Program-made: the position numbers and the translations under genes | The notes under the pieces: model-generated | What the model saw: only the letters and a program-made list of their open reading frames with translations | Database searches by the model: none | What the model was told of the DNA's origin: nothing | Shown: positions 2,085 to 60,120 of the stretch, one piece after another | Numbering within the stretch: the stretch's first letter is position 1 | Layout of the letters: every line of letters starts with the position of its first letter | DNA from: an uncultured bacterium | Lineage (GTDB): Bacteria > Omnitrophota > Omnitrophia > Omnitrophales > Abzuiibacteriaceae | Reading direction: 5' to 3' | Assembly (NCBI GenBank): GCA_964387845.1 | Contig: CAYLXA010000001.1 | Span: 320,001 to 384,000, forward strand | DNA: 64,000 nucleotides

Positions 2085-3578
2085 TTATCTGTTGGAAAGG
2101 GCTTCGACAAGCGCTTTTCCCTTGTGAAGCGTCTCTTGATACTCTGCGGCGGGTTTTGAATCATGCACAATACCGGCGCCGACTTGGAAGTAACCCTTTT
2201 GCTGATTAATCACGATTGTGCGGATCACAATGTTGAGATCCAGATCACCATCAAAACCAAAATAGCCAATGGAGCCGGTATAAATCCCGCGTTTGAAAGG
2301 TTCCAGCTCTTCGATAATTTCCATACAGCGAATCTTTGGGCATCCCGTGATAGTTCCGCCCGGGAACATCGCGCGTACCAAATCAAATTGATCCGCATCA
2401 TCACGAAGCTCGCCCTTTACGTTTGAGACAATGTGCACAACGTGTGAATATTCCTCAAGCGCCATCATCTCGCTCACGCGCACCGTGTGCGGCTTGCACA
2501 CGCGCCCCAAATCATTGCGTTCCAGATCTACTAGCATAATGTGCTCGGCGCGCTCTTTATCATTTGAGATAAGTTCACTGCGCAGTTTCTGATTTTGCAC
2601 TGCCGTTTTCCCGCGCGGCCGGGTCCCTGCAATCGGGCGCGTTTCGCACGCACTTCCCCGCTTTTTGATGAGGCGCTCCGGCGAAGAGCTAATCACCTGC
2701 AAATCGCCGAGACGAAAGAAACTGGAAAAAGGTGACGGATTGATATCCCGCAAACGTTCATAGAGTTTCTCAGAACTTCCTGAGAAATCAAACGAGAACC
2801 GCTGTGAAAGATTGGCTTGATAAATATCGCCTGCCTCTATGTAATCTTTGCCTTTTTTGACAATCGCTTCGAATTTTGATTTTTGAATATCAGATTTAAA
2901 ATTCTGAATTTGTATTTGTCCATTTTGATAAAGCGTTTGATTGAGTTTCGAGAGAGTCTCTTGAATCCAATTTTGACTTTCACTTAGCTGATCCTCAAAA
3001 CTCTTTCTCTCGGAAGGCATTAAATTGCTGATGAGATAAATCGCTTTCTTTGATTCATCGTAAGCGATCAAATTTCGGATGAATAGGAAAACAGCTTCAT
3101 CCAGTTTTTGGTCATTCTTCGCCCGGTTGGGCAGGCGTTCAAAATCCCACGCCAAATCATAGGAAAAATAACCAACCGCGCCGCCTAAAAATTCAGGGCC
3201 GGCGTTCCATTTTCTTCCGCGATAAGTTTTAAAGAGCTTGCGCATTTCCAGAAGAAAATCACCGCGTTTTTTTACGACCCTCACCCTGCCCTCTCCCTCA
3301 GGGAGAGGGAAACGCGAAGCGTGGGTGAGGGATTTTTCGATCGAAATATTTTTACCCTGCTTTCGCAAGATTAAAAACGGGTCGCTGGCCATATAGGAAA
3401 ATGTACCGGTTTTCTGGTGAAAGCGCGCGCTATCCAGGATAAACGAATTTTCGGAAGACTGGATCCTGCGGAAAGTTTCCCAGGAACTCAACGAAGCGGG
3501 GATTTTTTGGATCAGCGGAACAATGAAGCCTTTTTGGAAATATTTTCGAAGTGTCGTGATGGGCAGAACGTTATTCAT
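2085..3578 (-). CDS. Chorismate-binding enzyme, anthranilate synthase component I / aminodeoxychorismate synthase (TrpE/PabB) family.
   Basis: The 497 aa translation has the conserved C-terminal chorismate-binding core (MLVDLERNDLGRVC…, PGGTITGCPKIRCMEII, GIYTGSIGYFGFDGDLDLNIVIRT). It contains an in-frame copy of the CCCTCACCC/CCCTCTCCC repeat (see 3278–3331) that encodes PLPEGEGRVRV. Confidence 0.75.
   Translation of the reverse strand: MNNVLPITTLRKYFQKGFIVPLIQKIPASLSSWETFRRIQSSENSFILDSARFHQKTGTFSYMASDPFLILRKQGKNISIEKSLTHASRFPLPEGEGRVRVVKKRGDFLLEMRKLFKTYRGRKWNAGPEFLGGAVGYFSYDLAWDFERLPNRAKNDQKLDEAVFLFIRNLIAYDESKKAIYLISNLMPSERKSFEDQLSESQNWIQETLSKLNQTLYQNGQIQIQNFKSDIQKSKFEAIVKKGKDYIEAGDIYQANLSQRFSFDFSGSSEKLYERLRDINPSPFSSFFRLGDLQVISSSPERLIKKRGSACETRPIAGTRPRGKTAVQNQKLRSELISNDKERAEHIMLVDLERNDLGRVCKPHTVRVSEMMALEEYSHVVHIVSNVKGELRDDADQFDLVRAMFPGGTITGCPKIRCMEIIEELEPFKRGIYTGSIGYFGFDGDLDLNIVIRTIVINQQKGYFQVGAGIVHDSKPAAEYQETLHKGKALVEALSNR
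3278..3331. repeat. Family-1 nested palindromic repeat (ccctcaccc…ccctctccc tca gggagaggg…gggtgaggg), in frame inside the PabB-like CDS.
   Basis: Read directly: ccctcaccctgccctctccctcagggagagggaaacgcgaagcgtgggtgaggg. The same unit recurs at 8835–8900, 26927–27013 and 50755–50812. Confidence 0.8.
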
Positions 3579-4887: not shown

Positions 4888-4892
4888 ATTAA

Positions 4893-4976
4893 CGTAAATT
4901 CAAATCTCAAATTTCAAAATAATTTTGATATTTGAAATTTGAATTTGTTTTGAGATTTGATATTTGAATTTTGAAA
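4893..4976. repeat. Family-5 AT-rich palindromic repeat (aaattcaaatctcaaatttcaaaat … attttgaaatt), intergenic.
   Basis: It shares the motif taaattcaaatctcaaatttcaaaat and tttgatatttgaaatttgaattt with 54108–54212. It lies between the csaA-like stop and the DUF1015 start. Confidence 0.7.
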
Positions 4977-5321
4977 TTACTTAACAATTGCTCCAGACGG
5001 TAAATCTTTTTCGGGAGTTAGAAATGCGAGACTTGAATCCGTGCTTGCGGCCAGCAGCATGCCTTGTGATTCAACGCCGCGGATCACGGCCGGAGCCAGA
5101 TTTTTCACCACCACGATTTTTTTACCGACCAGCTCTTCAGGTTTATAGAATTGTTTAATACCGGCCACGATGGTCCGTTGCTCATCGGCAATCTTAATCC
5201 TCAAAACCCACAAACGGTCGGCGTTGGGATGCGGCTCCACTGCCAGGATTTCGGCCACCCGCAGCTCCAGCTTCTTAAAATCATCGTATGTAATGGTTTC
5301 AGTCGTCATTTGAGCCGCCAT
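4977..5321 (-). CDS. tRNA-binding domain protein (CsaA / Trbp111 / MetRS C-terminal-like).
   Basis: The core MAAQMTTETITYDDFKKLELRVAEILAVEPHPNADRLWVLRIK…VVVKNLAPAVIRGVESQGMLLAA is typical of the OB-fold tRNA-binding family. The track ORF extends a further 49 codons upstream across a structured inverted repeat, which is probably not translated. The start was placed at MAAQM by codon arithmetic. Confidence 0.65.
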   Translation of the reverse strand: MAAQMTTETITYDDFKKLELRVAEILAVEPHPNADRLWVLRIKIADEQRTIVAGIKQFYKPEELVGKKIVVVKNLAPAVIRGVESQGMLLAASTDSSLAFLTPEKDLPSGAIVK

Positions 5322-5361
5322 TCTATCACTAACCAAATAACGGTGGCAAGAAGGCTTCTCT

Positions 5362-5515
5362 AGCAGTATGGGATATCTCTTCCGGCACCAGCAGTTCGCA
5401 AGCTCCTGCGGCTTGCGCCTGCCTGCGCGCTCGCCCGTTGAACCCGCCGAAAAGCATGGCGGGGCCAAGCTTCAACGGGCTCCGCGAGCTGCCTTTAGAG
5501 ATATCCCATACTGCT
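5362..5515. repeat. Long-range perfect inverted repeat (agcagtatgggatatctct / agagatatcccatactgct) enclosing ~115 bp of GC-rich, internally palindromic sequence.
   Basis: The arms sit at 5362–5380 and 5497–5515. The interior contains cccgttgaa…ttcaacggg and gcaagc…gcttgc sub-hairpins. Confidence 0.7.
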
Positions 5516-5607
5516 TTACTTTAATAGCGGAAAACAGAAAATCGTTAAAGCTTACCTTCGGAGGGAATAATTTGCCGAATGCGGCTCACGGAACCACGAG
5601 GAGCTAG

Positions 5608-5690
5608 GCCCCCCGACTCTATTTCGCAAAGCGAGACAGCGGGGGTCCGAGTGGTGAGTGCGCAGGCGGCTTGACGCCGCAGCCCGTCAC
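5608..5690. repeat. Family-2 repeat (ccccc…tttcgcaaagcgagacagcgggggtccgag…gcgcaggcgg).
   Basis: It aligns by eye with 8965–9045 (ttcgcaaagcgaggcagcgggggtctgaag…gcgcaggcgg). Confidence 0.7.
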
Positions 5691-5892
5691 CTACATTGAA
5701 TTTCCTATTGAAGGTGAGGGCTGTCCCAATTCACCTATGAATAAACGTCTTAAGGCTTTAATGATAATTGGGACTGGAACGGCCGAAGTGCCGGTGCCGG
5801 CAGACAATCCTTGCCGGTGCTTAATAAAGATGGAAAACTAGTTTATTGTTGTAAGTTATTATAAATAAATGACTTATGGAATATAGTTTTTC

Positions 5893-5987: not shown

Positions 5988-7097
5988 TTGGGAAAGATTA
6001 AAATAGCAGTCGTCGGTGTCGGGAATTGCTGCGCTTCCCTGGTCCAGGGAATCGAGTTCTACCGCCATCAAAACGGCACCATTGCCAAGAGCCGTGAGCA
6101 TCTGGGTTTGATGCATTATAACCTAGGCGGCTACTTACCGGAAGACATCGAAATCGTCGCTGCGTTTGATATCGATAAACGTAAGGTCGGTGAACGCCTT
6201 GATGTCGCGCTAAAAGCCAAGCCCAATAATGTGCTCGAGCTTTTCGGCGATATTCCCCGCAGCCGTGTCGTGGTTCAAATGGGAACCGTGTTGGATGGGT
6301 ATTCGGAACACATGTCAGAATATCCTGTTGATCGCACATTTGTCCTCGCGAAACAAAAACCTGCCAATGTAGAACGCGTTCTGAAAGAGAGCGGCGCTGA
6401 AATTCTTTTGAATTATTTACCGGTTGGATCCGAGGAAGCCACACAATTCTACGCGGAAGCTTGCCTCAAAACGGGCGTGAGCTTCATTAATTGCATGCCT
6501 TCCTTTATTGTTTCAGATCCCAAATGGTCAAAGCGTTTTGAAGATAAGCGAATTCCCGTGATTGGCGATGATATTAAGGCTCAGCTGGGTGCTACAATTG
6601 TTCACCGCACGCTTGCGAAATTGTTTGCAGACCGCGGCGTCAAGATTGACCGCACCTATCAATTAAATACCGGCGGCAACACTGACTTTTTGAATATGCT
6701 CAACCGCAAACGCCTGGCATCCAAGCGCATTTCAAAGACGGAAGCCGTCCAAAGCCAGCTCGAAATTCCGCTGGATGAGGAAAATATTCACATCGGGCCT
6801 TCGGATTATGTCGCGTGGCAGAACGACAACAAAGTTTGTTATTTGCGCATGGAAGGCCGCGGATTTGCCGGTTTCCCGGTGAATGTCGAACTCAGGCTTT
6901 CTGTGGAAGATTCCCCCAATAGCGCCGGTGTCGCGATCGATGCGATCCGCTGCTGCAAGCTCGCGCGTGAACGCAATATCGGCGGGCCGCTCGTTTCAAT
7001 TTCAGCTTACGCGATGAAACATCCGCCGAAACAACTTCCCGATACCCAAGCCCGTGAACTCGTCGAAAAGTTCATCCAAGGCACTTGCCAGCGCTAA
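5988..7097 (+). CDS. ino1: myo-Inositol-1-phosphate synthase (inositol-3-phosphate synthase).
   Basis: MGKIKIAVVGVGNCCASLVQGIEFY… with an NAD-binding GxGxxG motif and the size (369 aa) typical of bacterial/archaeal MIPS. It has a TTG start. Confidence 0.85.
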   Translation: MGKIKIAVVGVGNCCASLVQGIEFYRHQNGTIAKSREHLGLMHYNLGGYLPEDIEIVAAFDIDKRKVGERLDVALKAKPNNVLELFGDIPRSRVVVQMGTVLDGYSEHMSEYPVDRTFVLAKQKPANVERVLKESGAEILLNYLPVGSEEATQFYAEACLKTGVSFINCMPSFIVSDPKWSKRFEDKRIPVIGDDIKAQLGATIVHRTLAKLFADRGVKIDRTYQLNTGGNTDFLNMLNRKRLASKRISKTEAVQSQLEIPLDEENIHIGPSDYVAWQNDNKVCYLRMEGRGFAGFPVNVELRLSVEDSPNSAGVAIDAIRCCKLARERNIGGPLVSISAYAMKHPPKQLPDTQARELVEKFIQGTCQR

Positions 7098-7098
7098 C

Positions 7099-7340
7099 CC
7101 GTCATTGCGAGGCGCTTAAATTGTCGCCGAAGCAATCTACGTTTTAAGCTTTGAAGAAGCCCTTCGCTCAGTGAATTCAACGTGAGAAATCTATTTGCTT
7201 AGGCATTGGAACACCTTCCACCGTTCCTACAATACTTAACGCTGTAGGCCGTCGGCTTTCCAACGCCTTCACACATGATTTCTCTCTCACGAATTCAATT
7301 CGCTTCGGCGCTTCTTCAAAGCTTTCCGCGCCACCCGCAT
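7099..7340. repeat. Family-3 palindromic element, expanded ~240 bp form (MITE-like). Outer arms gtcattgcgag…cgaagcaatctacgtt / gcttcggcg…; centre palindromic around 7230.
   Basis: The left end at 7099–7160 matches 14625–14665, and the right end at 7303–7340 matches the right half of the short copy. The inner ~140 bp is itself an imperfect palindrome (cctacaatacttaacgctgtagg). Confidence 0.6.
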
Positions 7341-7377
7341 CTAAATCCTAAGGCCGCAAATTGCGACCTTAGAATTT

Positions 7378-7917
7378 CTACCCAATCTTCCCGGGCCGAT
7401 GCGGATCCATCTCAAAACCAATCGCATCCGTAGTCGGCGGCGCCAAAAGCGGCCTAATCATTTTGAACAATCTCTGCAAAGCTCTGTCGTGATCGAGCAG
7501 AACCTTCTCAATTTCATCCAATCGTCCGTGCAGAATTTGATTCAGGTTGAAAACTTCTCTCAATCTCACAAAAGCACGGATCACGTAAACGCTCATACGG
7601 ACAGCTCGGTCACTGTTTAAAATGTTGGCTGCCATTAACGCCCCGTGTTCTGTGAAAGCAAAAGGAAGATACCGATCGCCACCCCGACCCTCTTTCTTTG
7701 AGGTCACAATCTGTGACCTCAAAAATTCTGCTTCCTCCAGAGTAAGCTGAAACATGAAATCTGCCGGAAAACGGCTTCGGTTACGTTTGACAGCTTGATT
7801 GAATGCTTTTGTGCTCACCCCATAAAGCTCCGCTAAGTCACGGTCAAGAATAACGCTCTGACTCCGGATGATGAGAACACGATTTTCTACAGCTAATTTA
7901 GGACCTCTTTTAGACAT
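7378..7917 (-). CDS. ORF6N domain protein (KilA-N-related, phage antirepressor-like DNA-binding family).
   Basis: ILDRDLAELYGVSTKAFNQAVKRNRSRFPADFMFQLTLEE is the hallmark ORF6N N-terminal block. Confidence 0.7.
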   Translation of the reverse strand: MSKRGPKLAVENRVLIIRSQSVILDRDLAELYGVSTKAFNQAVKRNRSRFPADFMFQLTLEEAEFLRSQIVTSKKEGRGGDRYLPFAFTEHGALMAANILNSDRAVRMSVYVIRAFVRLREVFNLNQILHGRLDEIEKVLLDHDRALQRLFKMIRPLLAPPTTDAIGFEMDPHRPGKIG

Positions 7918-8070
7918 GAAACACCCCTCTTATTGGTTTTAAATGGAGGGGGGATTTTAATTTTGTTTTTTACTGCGGGAGATATGGAATTATATATAAC
8001 TTTTACGATTAATCAACACTCAACTTCTAGCCTGTCCCCTTAGAAGGTGCCTGGCACTTTTTTTATGAGA

Positions 8071-8739
8071 TCAAATGACCCCTTTCATTAATGTTTCTTT
8101 AACTTTCTTGGCATTTTTTAGTCCTTCGTCAATCAAAGAAATAAAATACTCAATTTCTCCATTTAAAGTACTAGGATAAAAATCTCCAACCCGACAGCAT
8201 CCTTCACAAATTCCATCCATAGCTTGAACGTAAGCGGTTTCAGCAAATGTAAGCCATTCACGCGTTTCATTCCATGTTTCCTTCCCATCATGAGTACGCC
8301 AGGGGAAATTATGAACACGTTGAATATTCCGATGAGGATTTATCTTGTCACTAATATCTTTTATTTTTTCCTCGTACTCATCAAAATGAGATAAAAACTC
8401 TTTTCGTTGTTGTTTTAACCTATCTTTTGAGAAAGTCTGTCTTTCTAATTTTAGTTCAATATTTTCTTCTGAAACTTCTTTGCTTTTTTGCATTAAATTC
8501 CATAAACTAGCTTCACTAGAACGACCAAAAATCTTTCCTAAAGCGAGAATGTACTTTGTTTCCAAAGCATCTCGAATAAAGCTGAATAAGCCACCAAATT
8601 CTCGTTCAAATCCTTCTGATTGAACAAGCCCGTTATTCCATTTGAATAATAAAGCATGGAAAATGTTAGCCTCGCAAAGATCTCTGCTTACACAGGTTTC
8701 TATTACCTTCAGTGAATCTTGAACTTCATCCATCATCAA
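8071..8739 (-). CDS. Hypothetical protein, 222 aa, in an AT-rich (compositionally atypical) gene. It has an Rx5H motif (HRNIQRVH), so it may be a HEPN-like nuclease or abortive-infection-type protein.
   Basis: The ORF is visibly more AT-rich than its neighbours. Predicted product is largely helical. No family was recognised with confidence. It is co-directional with, and immediately upstream of, the ORF6N gene. Confidence 0.5.
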   Translation of the reverse strand: MMMDEVQDSLKVIETCVSRDLCEANIFHALLFKWNNGLVQSEGFEREFGGLFSFIRDALETKYILALGKIFGRSSEASLWNLMQKSKEVSEENIELKLERQTFSKDRLKQQRKEFLSHFDEYEEKIKDISDKINPHRNIQRVHNFPWRTHDGKETWNETREWLTFAETAYVQAMDGICEGCCRVGDFYPSTLNGEIEYFISLIDEGLKNAKKVKETLMKGVI

Positions 8740-8834
8740 CCTCCAATAAATTCATGATTCTGTACCAATTATAAAAGCATTCATATTTTATGCCCCCAAT
8801 TCGCAGAAGACAACCTGGTTCTCGAAATAGAACG

Positions 8835-8900
8835 CCCTCACCCCCTCCGGGCCTAAGGCCCGATAGGGCCGGAGGCTCACCCTACCCCTCTCCCAAAGGG
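8835..8900. repeat. Family-1 nested palindromic repeat (ccctcaccccctccgggcc…ggccggaggctcaccctacccctctcccaaagggagaggg).
   Basis: Read directly. It shares the ccctcaccc and ccctctccc-NNN-gggagaggg cores. Confidence 0.75.
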
Positions 8901-8964
8901 AGAGGGAAAAACAAAGGAAGAATCTGGCTTTGTGGAGGCGGCTCTCGGAATCCTTCAGAGCTTG

Positions 8965-9045
8965 GTCCCCCACCGTTTTGTTTCGCAAAGCGAGGCAGCG
9001 GGGGTCTGAAGGATGAGAGCGCAGGCGGTCGAGCCCGCGGGAGGC
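8965..9045. repeat. Family-2 repeat (second copy).
   Basis: ggtcccccaccgttttgtttcgcaaagcgaggcagcgggggtctgaaggatgagagcgcaggcggtcgagcccgcg aligns with 5608–5690. Confidence 0.7.
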
Positions 9046-9081
9046 GAGAACCGCCGGCGCCGGAACAAAGCTAGATTCTGA

Positions 9082-9963
9082 CTAAATTAGTGCTAATCCG
9101 ATTAATTTGTAAATAAGGCGCGCGACGAGGAAATTGGGGGCGTGAAGCTTTTCTATCGGTGATAATTCCATGACATCAAAACCAACAATTTTTCGTGACT
9201 TGGCGATTTCCCTAAAAAGCGCCATGGCTTCATGCCACAAAAGACCGTTGGGTTCCGGTGTTCCGGTTGCGGGCATAATCGAAGGGTCAAAACCATCTAC
9301 ATCGATCGTAATATAAACTTCATCCGTTAAATTGGTCAGCGCGGTGTGAATCCAATCTTGAATTGCCATCTTTTTGATTTCGTGCGCGTATAAAATGTTT
9401 ACGTTTTGCTTCTTGGCGACCCTGATTTGATCCGGTGAAATGCTGCGGATACCGACTTGCGAAAGCGGGCACTTTCCTGCAATGCGCGCCGCAATTGAGG
9501 CGTGCGAATAAGGCGTTCCCTCATAAGAATCGCGCAAATCCGCGTGAGCGTCGATCTGCAGAACGGACATTTTGGGATATTTCTTCAAGTGTGATTTGAT
9601 TAACGCGCTTGAAATAGAATGTTCACCGCCGATTCCGACCAGGAATTTATTTTCCGAGAGAATTTCATCCGATCGCTTTTCCAATCTTTCGATAAATTGC
9701 TTCGGGTCTTTTTCCTTTGCGGCAGGTTTGAAGCTTGGAAGTGTCGCAATCGATACCTTTTTACATGTTTCAACACCCAATTCCTCATCGTAATACTCCA
9801 CATAACGAGAAGCATCAATAACAGCTTTGGGGCCGCGGGATGTGCCTTTTCCGTAAGAGACCGTTCCTTCATAAGGAACCGGCAAAACAGCAACTTTGGA
9901 TTTGGTGTAAGCGGGTTCGGGATCCTGGCCTAAAAAGTTAAATGGGGCTTTTTCGTGCTGCAT
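9082..9963 (-). CDS. speB: Agmatinase (arginase/ureohydrolase family).
   Basis: The manganese-binding motifs GGEHSIS, DAHADL and SIDVDGFDP are present, and the size is 293 aa. It is adjacent to the pyruvoyl arginine decarboxylase gene. Confidence 0.8.
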   Translation of the reverse strand: MQHEKAPFNFLGQDPEPAYTKSKVAVLPVPYEGTVSYGKGTSRGPKAVIDASRYVEYYDEELGVETCKKVSIATLPSFKPAAKEKDPKQFIERLEKRSDEILSENKFLVGIGGEHSISSALIKSHLKKYPKMSVLQIDAHADLRDSYEGTPYSHASIAARIAGKCPLSQVGIRSISPDQIRVAKKQNVNILYAHEIKKMAIQDWIHTALTNLTDEVYITIDVDGFDPSIMPATGTPEPNGLLWHEAMALFREIAKSRKIVGFDVMELSPIEKLHAPNFLVARLIYKLIGLALI

Positions 9964-14021: not shown

Positions 14022-14031
14022 TTTTTATCCA

Positions 14032-14100
14032 GTGTTAAGTTGTAAGTGATAAGTTTTAAGTTATTCAATTACTTACCACTTATAACTTATCACTTACCAC
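14032..14100. repeat. Family-4 heptad hairpin (tandem NNTAAGT heptamers on one arm, ACTTANN on the other).
   Basis: gtgttaagttgtaagtgataagttttaagt – tattcaatt – acttaccacttataacttatcacttaccac. It sits between the gamma-CA stop and the sucC start. Confidence 0.75.
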
Positions 14101-14104
14101 TATG

Positions 14105-14617
14105 TTACAAACTTACAAAACGTCCCCGCGCGTGTTCCGCTGCAAGCTGAGCGTACCGCTTGGCCCATTCGATCTGGCCTTTGACTTCTTTCTTGGTCAA
14201 TTTCCGCTTAAATTTAGCCGGCATTCCAAGATATAAACTCTCAGGTTTTACCTTCATCCCTTCCGTCACAAGCGCTCCGGCGCCCACGAGTGCGCCTTCG
14301 CCAATCACCGCGTCATTTAAAATAATCGCGCCCATTCCGATCAAGGCGCCCGATTTTACCGTACACGCATGCAAAATCACATTGTGCCCAACCACGCAAT
14401 AATCACCCACGTAACAGCCGCGCTCGCGCTCTAAATGTACGAGCGAGAGATCCTGAATGTTTGTGTATTTACCGATCACAATTTCATTAATGTCGCCGCG
14501 CAGCACCACGCCGGGCCAGATATTGGCATAATCCTTGAGCGTCACGCGCCCGATCACTTGCGCAGACGGATGAACCCAGACATTCTTCCCGAGTTTCGGC
14601 TTATAAGTAAAAGTCGT
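14105..14617 (-). CDS. Gamma-class carbonic anhydrase family / hexapeptide-repeat protein.
   Basis: Left-handed beta-helix hexapeptide repeats (VIGRVTL…, IWPGVVLRGDINEIVIGKYTNIQDLSLVH). The start was placed at MTTFTY because the upstream 11 codons fall inside the family-3 repeat. Confidence 0.65.
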   Translation of the reverse strand, partial: TTFTYKPKLGKNVWVHPSAQVIGRVTLKDYANIWPGVVLRGDINEIVIGKYTNIQDLSLVHLERERGCYVGDYCVVGHNVILHACTVKSGALIGMGAIILNDAVIGEGALVGAGALVTEGMKVKPESLYLGMPAKFKRKLTKKEVKGQIEWAKRYAQLAAEHARGRFVSL

Positions 14618-14624
14618 CATTGCG

Positions 14625-14702
14625 AGACATAGTGATTGGTGTCGAAGCAATCTACGTTCTGAGATTGCTTCGGCGAAGTTTTCAAAGCGCCTCGCAATGA
14701 CG
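14625..14702. repeat. Family-3 palindromic element, short form (gtcattgcgag…cgaagcaatctacgttctgagattgcttcg…ctcgcaatgac).
   Basis: It is a near-perfect palindrome read directly. Its left half is identical to 7100–7140. Confidence 0.75.
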
Positions 14703-17200: not shown

Positions 17201-17815
17201 TTAGACTCTCACTAAGTGAATCAGCGAACTGAGGCCCATCGTGAAAACAATTACGCCAAGAAGCGCGGAAAACACGGCTGAGACTCTTTGTGATTTTGGC
17301 CCGACCGTAATGCCCCAGCTGATTGCAAATCCCCAAAGGCCGTTTGCAAAATGGAAACACACGGCAGCAAGACCAACGATGTAAAACCAAAATGTAAACG
17401 GATTCGCCATAAGTTCCTGCATCCGCGCAAAACTCACTTCCGTTCCGTAAAGCGCGTGCATAATGCGTGTTTCATAAACGTGGTACAAAATATAGGCAAA
17501 CGTAATCAAGCCCGTCCAGCGCTGAAGTACATAGAGAAAATTTTTTGTGTTCGGATAAGACGACAGGTTGGATTTTCCGCTAAACCAGACGTAGAAACCG
17601 TAACCGGCATGATACAAAATCGGAAGCGCGATAAAGATGATTTCAAGTGCAACCACAAACGGCAAACTTTGCAGGAATTCGATTTTTTCGTTGTAAGCTT
17701 CCGGGCCTTGTGTAATGAAGGAATTCGTGAACATGTGCTCCAGCAAAAAAGCGCCGATCGGAAATACGCCGGAAAGCGAGTGGAGCCTTCTAAGCCAGAA
17801 TGAGGATTTAGACAT
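17201..17815 (-). CDS. sdhC: Succinate dehydrogenase cytochrome b subunit (five-helix, dihaem type B-like).
   Basis: About 200 aa, five hydrophobic helices with conserved His residues. It sits immediately upstream of sdhA in the same strand block. Confidence 0.6.
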   Translation of the reverse strand: MSKSSFWLRRLHSLSGVFPIGAFLLEHMFTNSFITQGPEAYNEKIEFLQSLPFVVALEIIFIALPILYHAGYGFYVWFSGKSNLSSYPNTKNFLYVLQRWTGLITFAYILYHVYETRIMHALYGTEVSFARMQELMANPFTFWFYIVGLAAVCFHFANGLWGFAISWGITVGPKSQRVSAVFSALLGVIVFTMGLSSLIHLVRV

Positions 17816-17820
17816 TTTTC

Positions 17821-17910
17821 AGTCGTAAGTTGTAAGTGGTAAGTCGTAAGTTAATAAAATGGTAAGTTTTTGCTTCTTACTTACCACTTATCACTTACGA
17901 CTTACAACTG
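17821..17910. repeat. Family-4 heptad hairpin.
   Basis: cgtaagt tgtaagt ggtaagt cgtaagt … acttacc acttatc acttacg acttaca. The right arm begins at the mdh stop codon. Confidence 0.75.
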
Positions 17911-18831
17911 GAGTTTACCGATACTTTCTTTCACATGCGCAACCGACTTTTGAAGCGCTGCTTGATCAGCGGCAGAAATTTTAAGCTCGATCACTTTTCG
18001 GACGCCGCTTTTATCCAAACTCACCGGAACACCGCAATAAGTACCGGAAATTCCGTATTCACCGTTCAAAAGTACGCAGCACGGCAAAATTCGGCCTGAG
18101 TCATTCAAAATTGCTTCGACCATTGCAACTGCCGAACTTGACGGCGCATAATACGCGCTGCCTGTTTTAAGCAAATTCACAATTTCGATTCCGCCGTCGC
18201 GCGTGCGCTGATTAATTGCATCGATTCTTTCTTTCTTGATGAGCTGTGTAATCGGAACGCCGTTCACGGTCGAGAAATCAGGGACCGGAACCATCGAATC
18301 GCCGTGGCCGCCCAACACCATCGCGCGAACGTCTTTCGGTGATACTTTGAGTTCTTCGGCAATAAAATACGCATAACGCGAGGAATCCAGAACGCCCGCC
18401 ATACCGATCACGCGCTTTGAATCAAACCCTGATTTCTTCCACGCCAGATAAGCCATGACATCCAGCGGGTTTGTGACAATAACGAGAATTGCTTTTGGAG
18501 AATATTTGACAATTTCGGTGACGATACCGCCCACGATTTCGGCGTTTTTGGCCTGCAAATCATCACGGCTCATGCCGGGCTTTCGGGCGAGGCCTGCTGT
18601 GATCACAACGACGTCAGAATCTTTTGTATCAGCGTAGGAATTGGTGCCGACGATTTTGGTATCGAATTGCTCGAATGAGGAAGATTCCATCATATCAAGC
18701 GCTTTTCCCTGCGGCATTCCTTCAACCACATCGACTAAAACGACATCCGCCAATTCTTTTTCAAGGATTCTTTGAGCGCAAGTGGCTCCGACGAAACCTG
18801 CTCCGACTACGGTCACTTTTGAACGATTCAT
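17902..18831 (-). CDS. mdh: Malate dehydrogenase (LDH-like NAD-dependent type).
   Basis: KVTVVGAGFVGATCA Rossmann N-terminus, 309 aa, TNPLDVMAY block. Confidence 0.85.
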   Translation of the reverse strand: MNRSKVTVVGAGFVGATCAQRILEKELADVVLVDVVEGMPQGKALDMMESSSFEQFDTKIVGTNSYADTKDSDVVVITAGLARKPGMSRDDLQAKNAEIVGGIVTEIVKYSPKAILVIVTNPLDVMAYLAWKKSGFDSKRVIGMAGVLDSSRYAYFIAEELKVSPKDVRAMVLGGHGDSMVPVPDFSTVNGVPITQLIKKERIDAINQRTRDGGIEIVNLLKTGSAYYAPSSSAVAMVEAILNDSGRILPCCVLLNGEYGISGTYCGVPVSLDKSGVRKVIELKISAADQAALQKSVAHVKESIGKLQL

Positions 18832-25253: not shown

Positions 25254-27038
25254 CTACGAACGAACTTTATGATAGCGGCTTCTTAATAGCAAGAGAAAAG
25301 CAACATCTGCCGCTACCACGGCGGAAACATACCCCACACCACCGCCGCCAAAACCATAACTATGAAGCCCGGCCGCTAAGACAAAATTCACGCCGTACCA
25401 GGCCATGATCACCGTCAAAAAGCAGACCGCGCACCAAAACGCGGTCGCGAATGAATCCAGCCAGCCGGCAGTTCGCCCATGCATAACCGCCAAATACGCA
25501 AGTAACGCAATCAAAGCCCAGGTTTCCTTCGGATCCCAGCCCCAAAACCGGCCCCATGAATAATTCGCCCAAACGCCGCCCAGGATTGTTCCGGCAGCGA
25601 GCAAAATAAGCCCAATTTGAAGCGAACGATAAAGAAAAGTAATAAGCTCATCTAACGTTTTATTATTTTTTTTCTTAAAAGCATAGTGAAACACAACCAC
25701 ATGCGCGACACCCCAATTGAGCAAAAACGCACCATAGCCGAGCGTAATCGTCAGCACATGAACTGTGAGCCAAAAATTGCTGCGCAAAACGGGAACCAAA
25801 GGCGAAATCGACTGGTCCAAAACCGCCGGTAAATTTTCGCTGATCAAGAGCGCCAGAATGGATACGGACGCTGCGATCATCGGAATCAAATAGGACCTGT
25901 AAAAAGCAAAAAGAATGAGCGAGAAAAGCACAACACTCCACGACACCCAAATGACTGACTCATACATGTTCGTCACGGGCGGACGCCCGGCGATTAAACA
26001 ACGCAGCACAAAACCCAACGTATGAACCGCAAAAGCCGCGGTAAAAAATGAGAAAGCGATTTTATTGGCGCGTTTTTTATTTCTCAGTGTCAGCCAGATC
26101 AGAAGGCTGCCTAAATAAATTGCCCATGCCGTATGAAACGGGCGAAATTTGAGATAGAAAAGCTCGTAATGAATCAACGTCCGGTCGATGATGATGTCGC
26201 GCGATTCCAGTAATTTTGTAAGCGCATTGGCGAAAAATGAAGCAGATACGCCGGCCATTTCGATTTTTTCATCCCGCAAGCGGCCGAGGAGAAATGAAAG
26301 TGAGTTACTCGCTTCCTTCACATTCGCCGCGGGATACATGGTTTCCAAAATGGAAATACCGTGATCGCTCGCAAGCCCCTCAAGCGGAACCCACCCCGCC
26401 TGTGGATCATCGGGATGCGGAATAAAGCCCGGCATTTCTCCGCGCCCGATAGCCTGAAACAGACGCGCTCTGCTTCCGAGTTCAATCATTGCCTTTTCGT
26501 ATTCGTTTAGTTTTTCTTTTCTGTCCTGCTTAGCCCTTACTTCACCTGTTCTTGCCGTAAAATTCAAATCGGCGAGAACAAGAGAAGGTGCGATTCTATT
26601 GTTTTCCAGATCCGCGGAGAAATCCTTTCGTAACTCGGGATTTGAAACAGGTAAAATAGCCTTCGCGCTCCAAATATCGGGGGCCGCAATCCATCGCCAC
26701 ACCAGTTCGGTTGGCTCCATTTTTTGAAAATGTGTTTTGCCGGTCATATAGAGGACGATTTCTTTCGCGAAACTCTCAAACGGCTTGACGCGGCCGCCCT
26801 GCTGAACCGGAATTCCACCCAAAACTTCGTGCGCATTACCTTCGGATTGATTGGCAAAGGATTGGGGCGAGAAAAACATCGCCAAGAGAATGACTAAAGA
26901 AAGACTGACAATAAATTTACAATACACCCCCTCACCCTTTCCCTCTCCCTGAGGGAGAGGGGAATTGTTTAACTCACTCCCTCTCCCGCTTGCGGGAGAG
27001 GGCTGGGGTGAGGGTTGATTATTTAGAAATTGTCTCAT
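25254..27038 (-). CDS. ccsA: Cytochrome c biogenesis protein CcsA (System II haem lyase subunit) with an N-terminal extension of about 280 aa.
   Basis: The C-terminal WWD domain (WGRFWGWDPKETWALIALLAY) and conserved His are present. The first ~37 codons of the track ORF are encoded by the family-1 repeat, so the true start is probably at GTG ~26927 or ATG ~26879. Either gives a signal-peptide-like N-terminus (YCKFIVSLSLVILLAMFFSPQSFA). Confidence 0.7.
   Translation of the reverse strand: MRQFLNNQPSPQPSPASGRGSELNNSPLPQGEGKGEGVYCKFIVSLSLVILLAMFFSPQSFANQSEGNAHEVLGGIPVQQGGRVKPFESFAKEIVLYMTGKTHFQKMEPTELVWRWIAAPDIWSAKAILPVSNPELRKDFSADLENNRIAPSLVLADLNFTARTGEVRAKQDRKEKLNEYEKAMIELGSRARLFQAIGRGEMPGFIPHPDDPQAGWVPLEGLASDHGISILETMYPAANVKEASNSLSFLLGRLRDEKIEMAGVSASFFANALTKLLESRDIIIDRTLIHYELFYLKFRPFHTAWAIYLGSLLIWLTLRNKKRANKIAFSFFTAAFAVHTLGFVLRCLIAGRPPVTNMYESVIWVSWSVVLFSLILFAFYRSYLIPMIAASVSILALLISENLPAVLDQSISPLVPVLRSNFWLTVHVLTITLGYGAFLLNWGVAHVVVFHYAFKKKNNKTLDELITFLYRSLQIGLILLAAGTILGGVWANYSWGRFWGWDPKETWALIALLAYLAVMHGRTAGWLDSFATAFWCAVCFLTVIMAWYGVNFVLAAGLHSYGFGGGGVGYVSAVVAADVAFLLLLRSRYHKVRS
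26927..27013. repeat. Family-1 nested palindromic repeat (two inner ccctctccc-loop-gggagaggg hairpins inside ccctcaccc…gggtgaggg).
   Basis: ccccctcaccctttccctctccctgagggagaggggaattgtttaactcactccctctcccgcttgcgggagagggctggggtgaggg. Confidence 0.8.
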
Positions 27039-47390: not shown

Positions 47391-48204
47391 GAATAAAATA
47401 AAGACGACGTTAGAAAAAGCATTGCTCGCAGGCGGCGTTTTGGTTGAGAAAGCTTTTTATCAGCCAAAGAAAATCGAGTACAAAAGCCGCGCGAATTTAG
47501 TCACCGAAACGGATAAAGCAGCCGAACGAAAAATTTTGGACGTGATTTTGAATATATTTCCAAATCATACGATCCTCGCCGAAGAAACCGAGAGTAGAAA
47601 TCCGAAGTTTACATCGAATACTTTTATCAATCCGAATCCAAAATCCGCAAAATGGATCATTGATCCGATTGACGGAACGACCAACTTTGCGCACGGTCTT
47701 GCCCTGGTTAGTGTCAGTATTGGTTTTGAAGAAAACGGCGTTTTAAAATTAGGCGGCGTTTGGAATCCAATTTTGAAAGAAATGTTCTTCGCCGAAAAAG
47801 GAAAAGGCGCTTACTTAAATGGTAAACGGATCAGCGTATCAAAAACGCCCAAATTAGAATCGTCGCTGCTCGTCACCGGTTTTCCGTACGACAAATCCCG
47901 CTATACGCACAACACAATCATGAATGTGATGAAAGAATTTTTACTAGCATCGCACGGCATCCGCCGGCTCGGCTCAGCCGCAATTGACCTATGTTATGTT
48001 GCCTGCGGGCGCTTCGACGGTTATTGGGAATCCAAGCTTCAGCCCTGGGATCAGGCGGCAGGTGCATTAATCGCAGAAGAAGCCGGGGCGAAACTTTCTA
48101 ACTTTAAAGGAAAGCGTTACAGCATTTACGAGCAAGAAACGCTCGCGACAAACGGCAAAATTCATTCGGAGATGTTGAAGGTATTGAAGAAGTTGTGGAA
48201 ATAA
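47389..48204 (+). CDS. suhB: Inositol monophosphatase family protein.
   Basis: WIIDPIDGTTNFAHG and WDQAAG motifs. Confidence 0.85.
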   Translation: MNKIKTTLEKALLAGGVLVEKAFYQPKKIEYKSRANLVTETDKAAERKILDVILNIFPNHTILAEETESRNPKFTSNTFINPNPKSAKWIIDPIDGTTNFAHGLALVSVSIGFEENGVLKLGGVWNPILKEMFFAEKGKGAYLNGKRISVSKTPKLESSLLVTGFPYDKSRYTHNTIMNVMKEFLLASHGIRRLGSAAIDLCYVACGRFDGYWESKLQPWDQAAGALIAEEAGAKLSNFKGKRYSIYEQETLATNGKIHSEMLKVLKKLWK

Positions 48205-48290
48205 CTTAGTGCTAAGGGGTAAGTGATAAGTGGTAAGTAGAAAAACGATTTTACTTATCGCTTAGCACTTACCACTTATCACTCGTTAGT
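48205..48290. repeat. Family-4 heptad hairpin (convergent gene ends).
   Basis: cttagtgctaaggggtaagtgataagtggtaagtag … tacttatcgcttagcacttaccacttatcactcgttag. Confidence 0.75.
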
Positions 48291-48294
48291 CGAA

Positions 48295-48960
48295 TTAAAC
48301 GTTCGCTGCTAAATCAGACCACGGATATTCGCCGGTCCAATGATAACCGGGATTATCCACGTGATTTGGTACCAAGCATCCGTAGATGTTGCCCAAACCA
48401 TACACCATGCGGCTCCACCAGAACCACACGCCTTTTCCGATACCTTTGACCACATTGCCTTCTTTGCTTCCCTTGACAATCTGGCCCGGAACTTCCACGA
48501 TGCCCGTAAGGCCGTTGGCGAAACCATGTATCAATTTTCTGCCGTAAGGCTTCACGCCTTCTTTTAGATTCGGCTTGAAAATACTGTACGCGGTTCCCCA
48601 TTCCCACGAACGTTCGGCGTCAAACGGAATACCAACGCCCTGGTTGGATGCGGGGCTGGCAGCCCAGAATCCAAATAGCTCGGTGAATCCTGAAACTTCG
48701 CGGCCGGCAAAATGGCCAAAACCTTTGAAAAATCCAAGAATAGTGCCGACTGCTTTTGAAGCTGGTTTATTCTTGATCACACTCAAGCCTGTGTCATATC
48801 CTTTGTAAATCTGCACCGGTACTTCAACAATACCTGTGACGATATCAATGACACCGCGGACAGCTCGCTGACCCATTCCTTCGACAATTGGGCCTGCGCT
48901 AGCAATTCCGCACGGCAATACTAGTGAAAGTGCAAAAACAAGCGCAATAACTCTACGCAT
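48295..48960 (-). CDS. Exosortase-system-associated secreted protein (TIGR04073-like), internal tandem duplication of the domain.
   Basis: Signal peptide, then two repeats of the V/KxxxGxxNxxTGIVEVPxQI block (RAVRGVIDIVTGIVEVPVQI and KLIHGFANGLTGIVEVPGQI). Confidence 0.5.
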   Translation of the reverse strand: MRRVIALVFALSLVLPCGIASAGPIVEGMGQRAVRGVIDIVTGIVEVPVQIYKGYDTGLSVIKNKPASKAVGTILGFFKGFGHFAGREVSGFTELFGFWAASPASNQGVGIPFDAERSWEWGTAYSIFKPNLKEGVKPYGRKLIHGFANGLTGIVEVPGQIVKGSKEGNVVKGIGKGVWFWWSRMVYGLGNIYGCLVPNHVDNPGYHWTGEYPWSDLAANV

Positions 48961-49149: not shown

Positions 49150-50751
49150 ATGACATCTCTAAATAACCTAAAATCAGACGGAATCGAAATTAAAGGCGCT
49201 CTTACGCCTGCCTTCTCCGAAATCCTAACGCCTGAAGCCGTCAAATTTGTTGCGAGCCTTGAAAAAAAATTTGGGGCCCGTCGGCTTGAATTATTAGAAA
49301 AGCGCAAGGTCAGGCAAGCAGAAATCAACGCCGGCAAAATGCCGGACTTTCTAAGCGAAACCAAATCCGTCCGCGACAGCGACTGGAAAGTTGCACCGAT
49401 CCCGAAAGACCTCCTCGAACGCAAAGTCGAAATCACAGGGCCCGTGGAACGCAAAATGATGATTAATGCGCTTAATTCCGGCGCCAATGTGTTCATGGCC
49501 GATTTCGAAGATTCCAACTCACCGACTTGGCAGAACAACATCGAGGGGCATATAAATTTGCGCGACGCCGTCAATCGTACGATATCATTCAAAAACCCTG
49601 ACGGAAAAGAATACCAACTGAACGATAAAATCGCGACTTTGCTGGTTCGGCCGCGCGGCTGGCATTTAAACGAGAAACACATGACTGTGAGCGGCAAAGA
49701 AATCTCCGCTTCCTTGTTTGATTTTGGGTTTTTCTTTTTCCATAACGCGAAAACTTTGATCCAAAAAGGAACAGGCCCCTATTTTTATTTACCCAAAATG
49801 GAAAGCCACTTGGAAGCGCGTTTGTGGAATGATGTGTTTAATTTCGCACAGGATGAAATCAAAATCCCGCGCAGCTCAATTCGCGCGACGGTTTTGATTG
49901 AAACCATCTTAGCTTCGTTCGAAATGGATGAAATTTTGTACGAACTGAAAGATCACTCCGCAGGCCTCAATTGCGGACGCTGGGATTATATTTTCAGCTT
50001 CATCAAGAAATTCCGAGAGAAACCGGATTTCCTGCTTCCCGACCGTGCGCAAGTGACAATGGATAAGGCTTTCCTGAAGGCCTATGTCGAACTTTTGATC
50101 AAAACATGCCACCGCCGCGGCATTCACGCGATGGGCGGCATGGCGGCACAGATTCCTATTAAATCTGACCCCATTGCCAATGAAGCGGCGCTCGAAAAGG
50201 TCCGTCAGGACAAGCTTCGCGAAGTAAAAGCTGGCCACGACGGCACTTGGGTTGCGCATCCGGGACTTATTCCGATCGCCATGGATGCCTTCAATCAAAA
50301 TATGAAAGGTGCTAATCAATTAAATGTCGCACGTTCCGAAGTTCAAATTACGGCAAAAGATTTGCTCACCGTTCCAAAAGGCGATATCACCGAAGCCGGC
50401 CTCCGCAAAAATGTGAATGTCGGAATTCTCTACATCGAATCGTGGCTGCGCGGCTTGGGATGTGTACCACTTTATTACTTGATGGAAGACGCTGCAACTG
50501 CGGAAATCTCGCGCACGCAAGTGTGGCAATGGATCCGGCATCACGCGAAAATGACAAACGGTGTTCAAGTGACAGCTGAGTTGGTACAGAAAATCGTGAA
50601 GGAAGAACTTGCCGATATGGAAAAATCGGTTGGTGTTGAGAAATTTAAATCCGGAAAATTTAAACTTGCTTCAGAAATTTTCTACGAAATGAGTACTCGA
50701 AAAGAATGTCCTGACTTTTTAACGATCGAAGCTTATAAACATTTAGATTAA
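49150..50751 (+). CDS. aceB: Malate synthase A.
   Basis: 533 aa with malate synthase A blocks (…DFEDS…, catalytic Arg/Asp region GLNCGRWDYIFS). Confidence 0.9.
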   Translation: MTSLNNLKSDGIEIKGALTPAFSEILTPEAVKFVASLEKKFGARRLELLEKRKVRQAEINAGKMPDFLSETKSVRDSDWKVAPIPKDLLERKVEITGPVERKMMINALNSGANVFMADFEDSNSPTWQNNIEGHINLRDAVNRTISFKNPDGKEYQLNDKIATLLVRPRGWHLNEKHMTVSGKEISASLFDFGFFFFHNAKTLIQKGTGPYFYLPKMESHLEARLWNDVFNFAQDEIKIPRSSIRATVLIETILASFEMDEILYELKDHSAGLNCGRWDYIFSFIKKFREKPDFLLPDRAQVTMDKAFLKAYVELLIKTCHRRGIHAMGGMAAQIPIKSDPIANEAALEKVRQDKLREVKAGHDGTWVAHPGLIPIAMDAFNQNMKGANQLNVARSEVQITAKDLLTVPKGDITEAGLRKNVNVGILYIESWLRGLGCVPLYYLMEDAATAEISRTQVWQWIRHHAKMTNGVQVTAELVQKIVKEELADMEKSVGVEKFKSGKFKLASEIFYEMSTRKECPDFLTIEAYKHLD

Positions 50752-50754
50752 CTT

Positions 50755-50812
50755 CCCTCACCCCTCCCTCTCCCTCAGGGAGAGGGATAAAGGGAGAGGG
50801 GAATTAAGGGAG
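50755..50812. repeat. Family-1 palindromic repeat filling the aceB–aceA spacer.
   Basis: ccctcacccctccctctccctcagggagagggataaagggagaggggaattaagggag. Confidence 0.8.
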
Positions 50813-54107: not shown

Positions 54108-54212
54108 ATTCAAATCTCAAATTTCAAAATTCAAAATAATTCAAATTACTAAATTCCAAATTGAAACATTTGAATTTAGAATTTGTTTTGATATTTGAAA
54201 TTTGAATTTAAA
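54108..54212. repeat. Family-5 AT-rich palindromic repeat (second copy), between convergent rpmB and recJ.
   Basis: taaattcaaatctcaaatttcaaaat…ttgatatttgaaatttgaattt. Confidence 0.7.
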
Positions 54213-60118: not shown

Positions 60119-60120
60119 AA

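What the first reader, a model, noticed from the sequence alone, without database searches (positions are those of the whole stretch)
7099..9075. Repeat-bracketed AT-rich islet: ORF6N (KilA-N-like) gene plus an orphan 222 aa protein with an Rx5H motif
The islet sits between two ordinary metabolic genes, ino1 and speB. Two co-directional minus-strand genes are flanked on the left by a ~240 bp palindromic MITE-like element (family 3). On the right they are flanked by family-1 and family-2 repeats.

The 222 aa gene is conspicuously more AT-rich than the surrounding genome. It encodes a helical protein with an HRNIQRVH (Rx4-6H, HEPN-like) motif. Its downstream partner is an ORF6N DNA-binding protein of the phage antirepressor type.

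The arrangement (foreign composition, repeat flanks, nucleic-acid-binding partner) suggests a horizontally acquired two-gene module. It could be an abortive-infection / toxin-like defence pair or a mobile-element remnant. I could not assign the 222 aa protein to any family.
Basis: partly seen in the sequence, partly recalled or inferred. Interest (0 to 1): 0.65.

Follow-up and report, generated by a model that had tools for sequence, protein, structure and literature searches.

The report
Solo AbiU2-type HEPN gene in islet
A 2 kb insert between two metabolic genes carries a foreign, AT-rich gene for a predicted RNA-cutting anti-phage protein (AbiU2-type HEPN) beside an independent ORF6N gene; both belong to known kinds, and they are neighbours rather than a matched pair.

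Summary
Window 7099-9075 is a real insert: the closest relative found (about 88% nt identity) joins speB to ino1 with a 178-bp spacer and has neither gene.

The "orphan" 222 aa protein is not an orphan. It scores above Pfam's threshold for HEPN_AbiU2 (PF18734). Its R137-N-x4-H143-N motif is invariant in 42 homologues. It models as an all-helical bundle (pLDDT 93). Its gene is foreign in composition (34.5% GC, GC3 26%, against 47%).

The ORF6N gene has native composition and matches the PADLOC candidate family PDC-S05.

The two genes are not a conserved module:
- None of 80 ORF6N loci holds an AbiU2-like gene.
- None of about 8 distinct AbiU2-like loci holds ORF6N.
- Each gene has its own promoter-like site.
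- A more distant relative keeps ORF6N and the hairpin but has an unrelated AT-rich 369 aa gene in the HEPN slot.

The flanking repeats are genome-wide REP-like families, not the ends of an element.

Best reading: a small flexible islet whose cargo here is a solo HEPN RNase of abortive-infection type. RNase activity and defence are inferred, not shown. This is a new member of a known kind, of modest interest.

The parts
7100..7143 (.). One unit of a short REP-like repeat (CGTCATTGCGAG..N19..GAAGCAATC), immediately after the ino1 stop codon
   Evidence: Repeat family D10. A palindromic pair of the same unit lies at 14615-14702. The unit is conserved in relative L004.
7146..7324 (.). Long imperfect hairpin in the convergent ino1/ORF6N intergenic region. 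It is a single copy in this window.
   Evidence: Perfect 15-nt arms at 7146-7160 and 7310-7324. The fold of 7095-7380 gives -93.6 kcal/mol, z = -7.8. It is largely conserved with L004 outside one indel, while synonymous sites of core genes are only 50-57% identical. It is absent from L101. No Rfam match.
7378..7917 (-). Stand-alone ORF6N-domain gene (179 aa): N-terminal ORF6N DNA-binding domain plus a roughly 80 aa C-terminal region. It belongs to the PADLOC candidate family PDC-S05.
   Evidence: Pfam PF10543, E 7.7e-32. PADLOC PDC-S05, E 7.4e-49, and nearly full length on PDLC04856. PHROG anti-repressor, 2e-22. GC 46.9%; 96.1% aa identity to relative L004. More than 1900 homologues at E<=1e-40.
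7697..7723 (.). Perfect 12+3+12 palindrome inside the ORF6N coding sequence (it encodes LRSQIVTSK)
   Evidence: It is identical in L004-L008. It is not palindromic in 37 other ORF6N homologues.
7989..8016 (-). Promoter-like site of ORF6N (TTGATT-16-TATAAT, 10/12)
   Evidence: The -10 box and part of the -35 region align with L004. Homology to L004 stops just upstream.
7998..8789 (.). AT-rich foreign segment (34.5% GC). In relative L004 this slot holds a different AT-rich gene.
8071..8739 (-). Gene for a divergent AbiU2-family HEPN protein (222 aa from TTG 8739; more likely 220 aa from ATG 8733, 6 nt after GGAGG). Predicted metal-independent RNase.
8311..8334 (-). H136-R137-N138-I-Q-R-V-H143: the Rx5H motif, with Asn after the Arg
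   Evidence: Translation. R137 and H143 are invariant in 42 sequences down to about 20% identity; N138 and N144 are conserved in at least 90%.
8785..8813 (-). Promoter-like site upstream of the HEPN gene (TTGTCT-17-TAAAAT, 9/12)
   Evidence: This is a consensus match only.
8790..9075 (.). GC-rich (60.6%) block of native REP-like repeats between the HEPN gene and the speB stop codon
   Evidence: Family D4 copy at 8886-8916 and family D8 copy at 8968-9028, with other copies elsewhere in the window and in relatives at other sites. GC.

Best explanation
Window 7099-9075 is a small flexible-genome islet at the speB-ino1 junction, built in layers.

(1) An ORF6N gene and an adjacent long hairpin. This pair is shared with a more distant relative, absent from the closest one, and less diverged than the surrounding core genes. 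It therefore behaves as flexible DNA circulating within this clade.

(2) A cargo slot just upstream of the ORF6N promoter. In this genome the slot holds a recently acquired AT-rich single gene with its own promoter-like site. The gene encodes a divergent AbiU2-family HEPN protein.

(3) Native REP-like repeats that fill the remaining intergenic DNA.

The HEPN protein is predicted to be a metal-independent endoribonuclease that uses R137, N138 and H143. It would act as a stand-alone abortive-infection or toxin-type defence effector: inactive in normal growth, and cleaving RNA to halt translation once a phage triggers it.

The ORF6N protein is a separate stand-alone DNA-binding protein of a candidate defence family (PDC-S05). 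The two genes are co-located, not co-dependent.

Shown: family assignment, motif conservation, foreign composition, presence/absence among relatives, and lack of co-occurrence. Inferred: RNase activity, the defence role, the mode of activation, and separate transcription.
For: HEPN assignment:
- Pfam HEPN_AbiU2 above its gathering score.
- 24 of 42 relatives hit the same family.
- In homologues the Pfam matches run to profile positions 134-135, just past RNxQRxHN.
- R137 and H143 are invariant.
- The defining features of the family are taken from PMC3710099.

Foreign origin:
- GC 34.5% and GC3 25.6% against 47%.
- The subfamily is rare: 45 representatives among 1.84 billion proteins.

Islet:
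- Empty site in L101.
- Alternative AT-rich 369 aa gene (GC 32%) in L004 at the same slot.
- ORF6N third-codon identity between window and L004 is 73%, against 50-57% for core genes.

Independence of the two genes:
- 0 of 80 ORF6N loci have an AbiU2-like ORF.
- AbiU2-like genes occur alone among defence/toxin genes or between housekeeping genes, never with ORF6N.
- Neighbours of ORF6N homologues are mostly housekeeping genes.
- The two genes are separated by 153 bp, and each has a promoter-like site.

Defence link of ORF6N:
- PDC-S05 match.
- PDC families were defined by embedding in RM/BREX/DISARM systems (10.1101/2024.01.29.577857).
- One PDC-S05 representative, of the RhuM type, reduced plating of T7 and T5 about 1000-fold (10.1101/2024.09.26.614923).
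Against: - No biochemical or phage data exist for this subfamily.
- The Pfam score exceeds the threshold by only about 4 bits.
- No antitoxin or sensor is evident, so how a solo RNase would be kept inactive is unknown.
- Several homologues sit between plain housekeeping genes with no defence neighbours, so island context is suggestive only.
- The tested PDC-S05 protein carries a RhuM domain that the window protein lacks.
- ORF6N's low synonymous divergence could reflect constraint rather than transfer.
Confidence: 0.62

Rival explanations
1. Obligate two-gene module. The HEPN protein is a toxin or effector, and the downstream ORF6N protein is its antitoxin, sensor or transcriptional regulator. 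The pair was acquired together.
For: The two genes are adjacent, co-directional and absent together from L101. ORF6N belongs to a candidate defence family. HEPN toxins commonly have partners (PMC3710099).
Against: - 0 of 80 ORF6N loci carry an AbiU2-like ORF.
- No AbiU2-like locus carries ORF6N.
- The same ORF6N (96% aa identity) sits behind an unrelated gene in L004.
- The two genes differ in composition: 34.5% against 46.9% GC.
- There is a 153-bp spacer containing a promoter-like site that is conserved in L004.
Confidence: 0.08
2. ORF6N-anchored cargo hotspot. The conserved ORF6N gene and its hairpin form a carrier or landing pad into which different AT-rich single-gene cargoes are swapped, so the association is structural rather than functional.
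For: Two different AT-rich cargoes (HEPN; a 369 aa TM/Zn-ribbon gene) end at the same point just upstream of the ORF6N promoter. ORF6N and the hairpin are less diverged than the core genome and are missing from the closest relative. Another ORF6N homologue borders a HicB/Vsr/Dcm/HNH islet.
Against: - Only two cargo states have been seen.
- No integrase, target-site duplication or recombination site was found.
- Most ORF6N homologues sit directly between housekeeping genes.
- Downstream hairpins are not a general feature of ORF6N loci: median z is -0.69 downstream against -0.61 upstream.
Confidence: 0.12
3. The HEPN-like gene is not a defence gene. It is either a catalytically unrelated helical protein that keeps an R/H motif for another role (for example ligand or RNA binding, as in non-catalytic HEPN domains), or a selfish or decaying remnant with no current function.
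For: The fold search is not specific. The Pfam score is marginal. Some homologues lie among housekeeping genes.
Against: The ORF is intact and full length relative to all homologues, and 31 columns are invariant among the 14 closest sequences. The catalytic-type R-N...H-N motif is invariant over 42 sequences. Two homologues sit in clear defence/toxin contexts.
Confidence: 0.1

Closest known systems
AbiU2 family of HEPN domains (Pfam PF18734; defined by Anantharaman et al. 2013, PMC3710099, from the Lactococcus lactis AbiU abortive-infection locus)
   Same: The sequence match is above Pfam's threshold. The protein is all alpha-helical. The Rx4-6H motif is conserved, with Asn after the Arg. Family members occur in or near R-M and defence operons, as the paper's Table 1 notes for AbiU2.
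   Different: This is a divergent and rare subfamily: 45 representatives at 50% identity, and scores of only 25-35 bits for the ten members scanned individually (best in the family E 1.4e-11). It is a solo gene here. No Sel1-repeat gene, R-M operon or second large Abi gene lies beside it. No homologues were found in the plasmid or phage collections.
HEPN toxins of HEPN-MNT type II/VII toxin-antitoxin systems (e.g. SO_3166, PDB 5yep; AMPylated HEPN toxin, PDB 8xdj)
   Different: No adjacent MNT nucleotidyltransferase antitoxin is present. The protein is about 90 aa longer, with extra helices. Sequence similarity to these toxins is below detection. One distant subfamily member (L091) does sit beside an NTP_transf_2 gene.
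PADLOC phage defence candidate PDC-S05 (single-gene candidate; Payne et al., bioRxiv 10.1101/2024.01.29.577857)
   Same: The ORF6N protein matches all three PDC-S05 models, at E 7e-49 to 2e-35, and nearly full length on the 177-position and 183-position models.
   Different: Here the gene is not embedded in an RM, BREX or DISARM system. The one experimentally tested representative carries a RhuM domain, which this protein lacks. Most close homologues lie among housekeeping genes.
Phage ORF6N/KilA-N/Rha-type antirepressors
   Same: Both have an N-terminal ORF6N DNA-binding domain. The protein hits the PHROG anti-repressor family at 2e-22.
   Different: The gene is chromosomal and stand-alone, with no prophage genes nearby. 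Similar genes are stable at one locus across species in other clades; for example, 9 of the upstream neighbours scanned are methylmalonyl-CoA mutase genes.

Membership tests
HEPN superfamily | Conserved Rx4-6H motif with a polar residue (N/D/H) directly after the Arg (PMC3710099) | tested here: met
   R137-N138-I-Q-R-V-H143 is an Rx5H motif. R137 and H143 are invariant, and N138 is conserved in at least 90% of 42 sequences down to about 20% identity.
HEPN superfamily | Four-helix up-and-down bundle core, specifically similar to solved HEPN domains | tested here: inconclusive
HEPN superfamily | Metal-independent endoribonuclease activity that depends on the Arg and His | not testable with these tools
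   Requires biochemistry.
Pfam HEPN_AbiU2 (PF18734) | Whole-protein score at or above the curated gathering score (26.8 bits) | tested here: met
   30.7 bits, E 2.7e-7. 24 of 42 subfamily members match at E<=0.01, best 1.4e-11. In homologues the matches extend through the RNxQRxHN motif to profile positions 134-163.
AbiU-like two-gene abortive-infection locus (the original Lactococcus arrangement, recalled from the literature rather than verified here; PMC3710099 lists Sel1-repeat partners and R-M operons for the family) | A partner gene in the same operon: a second Abi gene, a Sel1-repeat protein or R-M genes | tested here: not met
   The only neighbours are ORF6N and speB. No Sel1, methylase or nuclease domains were found.
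HEPN-MNT toxin-antitoxin system | An adjacent minimal nucleotidyltransferase (NTP_transf_2) antitoxin gene | tested here: not met
   No such domain occurs in the islet ORFs. It is present only beside the distant homologue in L091.
   0 of 80 ORF6N loci with 6-kb flanks contain an AbiU2-like ORF. No ORF6N was found in L002, L003, L089, L091-L098.
PADLOC PDC-S05 | Match to the family's HMMs | tested here: met
   E 7.4e-49, 3.2e-45 and 1.6e-35 on the three models.
PADLOC PDC-S05 | Embedding in, or adjacency to, RM/BREX/DISARM systems (the basis on which PDC families were proposed) | tested here: not met
   In the window the gene is flanked by ino1 and the HEPN gene. Among 116 immediate neighbours of homologues, only about 10 are PADLOC defence proteins.
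PADLOC PDC-S05 | Anti-phage activity | not testable with these tools
   One RhuM-type representative was reported active (10.1101/2024.09.26.614923). It is not this short form.
MITE / mobile element bracketing the islet | Matching terminal inverted repeats at both ends of the islet, a target-site duplication, and multiple genomic copies | tested here: not met
   The left and right flanks belong to different repeat families. No repeat links the two ends. The 180-nt hairpin is a single copy in the window. The short units are REP-like and scattered through intergenic DNA.
Horizontally acquired genomic islet | Absence from close relatives at a conserved junction, plus deviant composition | tested here: met
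   L101 has an empty site. The HEPN segment is 34.5% GC against 47%. Deviant composition holds only for 7998-8789.

The most novel reading that the evidence does not exclude
The conserved ORF6N gene and its long hairpin form a clade-specific mobile carrier or landing pad. Single AT-rich cargo genes are exchanged at a fixed point just upstream of the ORF6N promoter: here an AbiU2-type HEPN gene, in a relative a 369 aa membrane/Zn-ribbon gene. This would be a minimal, integrase-free gene-swapping hotspot for defence cargo.
Probability: 0.1. Interest if true: 0.55.

Novelty: new member of a known kind. Interest (0 to 1): 0.3.

Why it matters
It assigns a family, with testable catalytic residues (R137, N138, H143), to a protein that first looked like an orphan. 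It adds a rare and uncharacterised branch to the AbiU2 HEPN family, for which no structure or biochemistry exists.

It also gives a clean three-state natural comparison at one chromosomal junction: empty, ORF6N plus HEPN, and ORF6N plus an unrelated gene. That comparison shows how single defence-type genes come and go between housekeeping genes in an uncultured lineage.

Beyond that it is ordinary. Solo HEPN genes and ORF6N genes in variable islets are expected features of bacterial genomes.

Tried and rejected
- Pair hypothesis. A profile of 42 AbiU2-like proteins, searched against all ORFs of 80 ORF6N loci, gave no hit.
- Phage or plasmid origin. No relatives were found in IMG/VR, the INPHARED phages or the PLSDB plasmids. 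BFVD gave no structural match.
- Known RNA in the intergenic hairpin or repeats. No Rfam match at E<=1.
- Hairpin as a general companion of ORF6N genes. The 250 nt downstream of 70 homologues fold no better than the upstream DNA.
- The palindrome inside the ORF6N CDS as a family-wide site. It is absent in 37 homologues and single-copy in the window.
- Repeats as element termini. The two flanks belong to different genome-wide families.
- Integron cassette, integrase or target-site duplication. Inspection of the junctions showed nothing.
- Sequence match to solved structures. None, for either protein.
- First structure prediction, from 14 sequences. It was poor (pLDDT 67) and was replaced by the 42-sequence model.
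- The afdb50 fold library was unavailable.
- The organism could not be named. The cluster look-ups carry no names, and the window's own genome was not among the loci returned from the species-representative genomes.
Full report
**What is there**

The ORF map confirms ino1 (5988-7097, +) and speB (9082-9963, -). Between them, on the minus strand, lie an ORF6N gene (7378-7917, 179 aa) and a 222 aa ORF (8071-8739). The public gene call for the second ORF is 220 aa, from the ATG at 8733, which lies 6 nt after a GGAGG.

HRNIQRVH is encoded at 8311-8334.

The composition profile drops to 33-36% GC over about 7950-8700. By gene:
- The HEPN gene is 34.5% GC, with GC3 of 25.6%.
- ORF6N is 46.9% GC, with GC3 of 47%.
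- The window as a whole is 46.8% GC.
- The block 8790-9081 is 60.6% GC.

Only the 222 aa gene and its immediate flanks are therefore compositionally foreign.

**The repeats**

The left element has two parts.
- A 44-nt unit (7100-7143). The same unit occurs as an inverted pair at 14615-14702.
- A long hairpin (7146-7324). It folds far better than shuffled sequence (z = -7.8) and is a single copy in the window.

The right flank holds copies of two families found in other intergenic regions of the window (3289, 26941 and 50766; 5609).

These are genome-wide REP-like repeats. Nothing links the two ends of the islet. No Rfam family matches.

**The 222 aa protein**

Pfam assigns it to HEPN_AbiU2 (PF18734): 30.7 bits against a gathering score of 26.8, E 2.7e-7. 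PADLOC and NCBIfam have no model for it.

It belongs to a rare subfamily:
- 14 clusters among 5.8 billion sequences.
- 45 representatives among 1.84 billion proteins.

In an alignment of 42 members, some only about 20% identical, R137 and H143 are invariant, and N138 and N144 are conserved in at least 90%. Of these 42 members, 24 hit PF18734, the best at 1.4e-11. In homologues the Pfam matches run through the motif, to profile positions 134-163.

This meets the sequence definition of an active HEPN domain: Rx4-6H with a polar residue after the Arg. In other HEPN families these residues are required for metal-independent RNase activity (PMC3710099).

With the 42-sequence alignment, AlphaFold gives a confident all-helical model (pLDDT 93.2, pTM 0.88). 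The 14-sequence attempt was poor.

- Unrelated helical bundles score as high or higher.
- Foldseek finds nothing significant.

The fold is compatible with HEPN but does not prove it. No solved structure matches by sequence.

**Is it a pair?**

*Contexts of AbiU2-like genes.* None of the loci below has an ORF6N gene.
- L002: the gene follows a DISARM-like SNF2/PLD gene, a type IIG RM gene and a T1RH-like gene.
- L003: it lies among DUF4411 (PIN), RHH and DUF1016_N genes.
- L089: it is again followed by a DUF1016_N (+SNase) gene.
- L091-L093: it lies with an NTP_transf_2 gene and an HSDR_N_2 gene inside a purine operon.
- L094-L096: it lies next to a NYN gene, after rpoD.
- L097-L098: it lies next to gatCAB.

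*Contexts of ORF6N genes.* I fetched 80 loci encoding ORF6N homologues (48-61% identity, many phyla) with 6-kb flanks.
- The AbiU2-like profile hits no ORF in them.
- Their immediate neighbours are mostly housekeeping genes, for example methylmalonyl-CoA mutase in 9 loci.
- About 10 of 116 neighbours are PADLOC defence proteins, and 4 are tandem ORF6N copies.

*In the window.* The two genes are 153 bp apart, and each is preceded by a promoter-like site.

The pair is not a conserved module.

**Relatives at the same junction**

Three states exist.

| Genome | Similarity to window | speB-ino1 junction |
|---|---|---|
| L101-L103 | about 88% nt; third-codon identity 66-72% | speB directly followed by ino1, 178-bp unrelated spacer (empty site matching the finding's coordinates) |
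| Window | - | REP-like repeats, HEPN gene, ORF6N, hairpin |
| L004-L008 | about 80% nt; third-codon identity 50-57% | ORF6N (96.1% aa identity), its promoter region and the hairpin, plus an unrelated AT-rich 369 aa gene in the HEPN slot |

The 369 aa gene in L004 is 32% GC and has transmembrane segments and a C-terminal zinc-ribbon-like CxxC pair.

Homology between the window and L004 ends just upstream of the ORF6N promoter.

Between the window and L004, ORF6N is 73% identical at third codon positions, and the hairpin is largely conserved outside one indel. That is clearly less diverged than the flanking core genes.

Together with its absence from L101, this suggests that ORF6N and the hairpin are themselves flexible DNA exchanged within the clade. 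Deletion in L101 combined with extra sequence constraint on ORF6N cannot be excluded.

**ORF6N**

It matches Pfam ORF6N and PHROG anti-repressor families. It also matches all three PADLOC PDC-S05 models (E down to 7e-49).

PDC families were proposed because members are embedded in RM, BREX or DISARM loci (10.1101/2024.01.29.577857). One PDC-S05 representative, described as carrying a RhuM domain, reduced plating of T7 and T5 about 1000-fold (10.1101/2024.09.26.614923).

The window protein is the short form and gave no Virulence_RhuM hit at E<=0.1, so that result transfers only loosely. One 66%-identical homologue borders a HicB/Vsr/Dcm/HNH islet.

**Mechanism proposed**

Shown:
- A foreign single gene of the AbiU2 HEPN family with an intact catalytic-type motif.
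- It sits in a presence/absence islet next to an independent ORF6N gene.

Inferred:
- The protein is a metal-independent RNase acting as a stand-alone abortive-infection or toxin-type effector.
- It is transcribed from its own promoter.
- It is held inactive by an unknown mechanism until infection.

I put about 0.85 on the family assignment, about 0.8 on the two genes not being an obligate pair, and about 0.5-0.6 on RNase-based defence.

**Novelty**

Both proteins fall in described families, so this is a new member of a known kind.

The one less ordinary aspect is the apparent fixed cargo boundary in front of ORF6N, seen with two different AT-rich genes. With only two states observed and no recombination machinery found, I give the hotspot reading about 0.1.

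Noticed in passing
window 7697-7723: A perfect 27-nt palindrome (12+3+12) lies inside the ORF6N coding sequence, encoding LRSQIVTSK. It is identical in relatives L004-L008, single-copy in the window, and not palindromic in 37 other ORF6N homologues. It also scores as a terminator-like site on the antisense strand.
   Followed up: partly
L004 6718-7827 (also L005/L006 929-2044): In a related genome the slot occupied here by the HEPN gene holds an AT-rich (32% GC) 369-371 aa gene. It has predicted membrane segments, a weak CBM_4_9-like stretch and a C-terminal CxxC...CxxC zinc-ribbon-like end. It matches no Pfam family above threshold and no PADLOC model.
   Followed up: partly
window 14025-14113, 17815-17914, 48202-48295, 55882-55971, 60037-60126: A five-copy intergenic family of roughly 90-nt palindromes built from repeated (G/A)TAAGT hexamers and their complements. 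Each copy sits between genes.
   Followed up: no
window 3271-3319, 8886-8916, 26923-26971, 50748-50796: A REP-like family centred on the palindrome CCCTCTCCC-NNN-GGGAGAGGG. Copies also occur at different intergenic positions in relatives (for example L101 4136-4168).
   Followed up: partly
window 4890-4984 and 54100-54247: AT-rich repeats made of AAATTTGAA-like units at two distant intergenic sites, partly palindromic.
   Followed up: no
L003 3683-4630 and L089 2339-3559: The two closest AbiU2-like homologues with readable context (60-63% identity) are both followed by a DUF1016_N gene (in L089 fused to an SNase domain). This may be a recurrent neighbour that the window lacks.
   Followed up: partly
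L091 7382-9304 (also L092, L093): A distant AbiU2-like gene sits with an NTP_transf_2 (MNT-type) gene, a 53 aa ORF and a stand-alone HSDR_N_2 gene as a small islet inserted in the middle of a purine biosynthesis operon (purL/purQ ... purM).
   Followed up: no
L010, L011, L015, L018, L020, L021, L023, L030, L061 and similar Acidobacteriaceae loci: Nine of the upstream neighbours of ORF6N homologues scanned are methylmalonyl-CoA mutase genes, apparently in the Acidobacteriaceae loci. This suggests stable vertical inheritance there. Four loci elsewhere have tandem ORF6N paralogues.
   Followed up: partly
window 4977-5468: The mechanical ORF for the tRNA-binding-domain protein is 163 aa from a TTG. 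Relatives-110 aa, so the true start is probably near 5303. The upstream part overlaps GC-rich repeat DNA (5400-5700, 58% GC).
   Followed up: no
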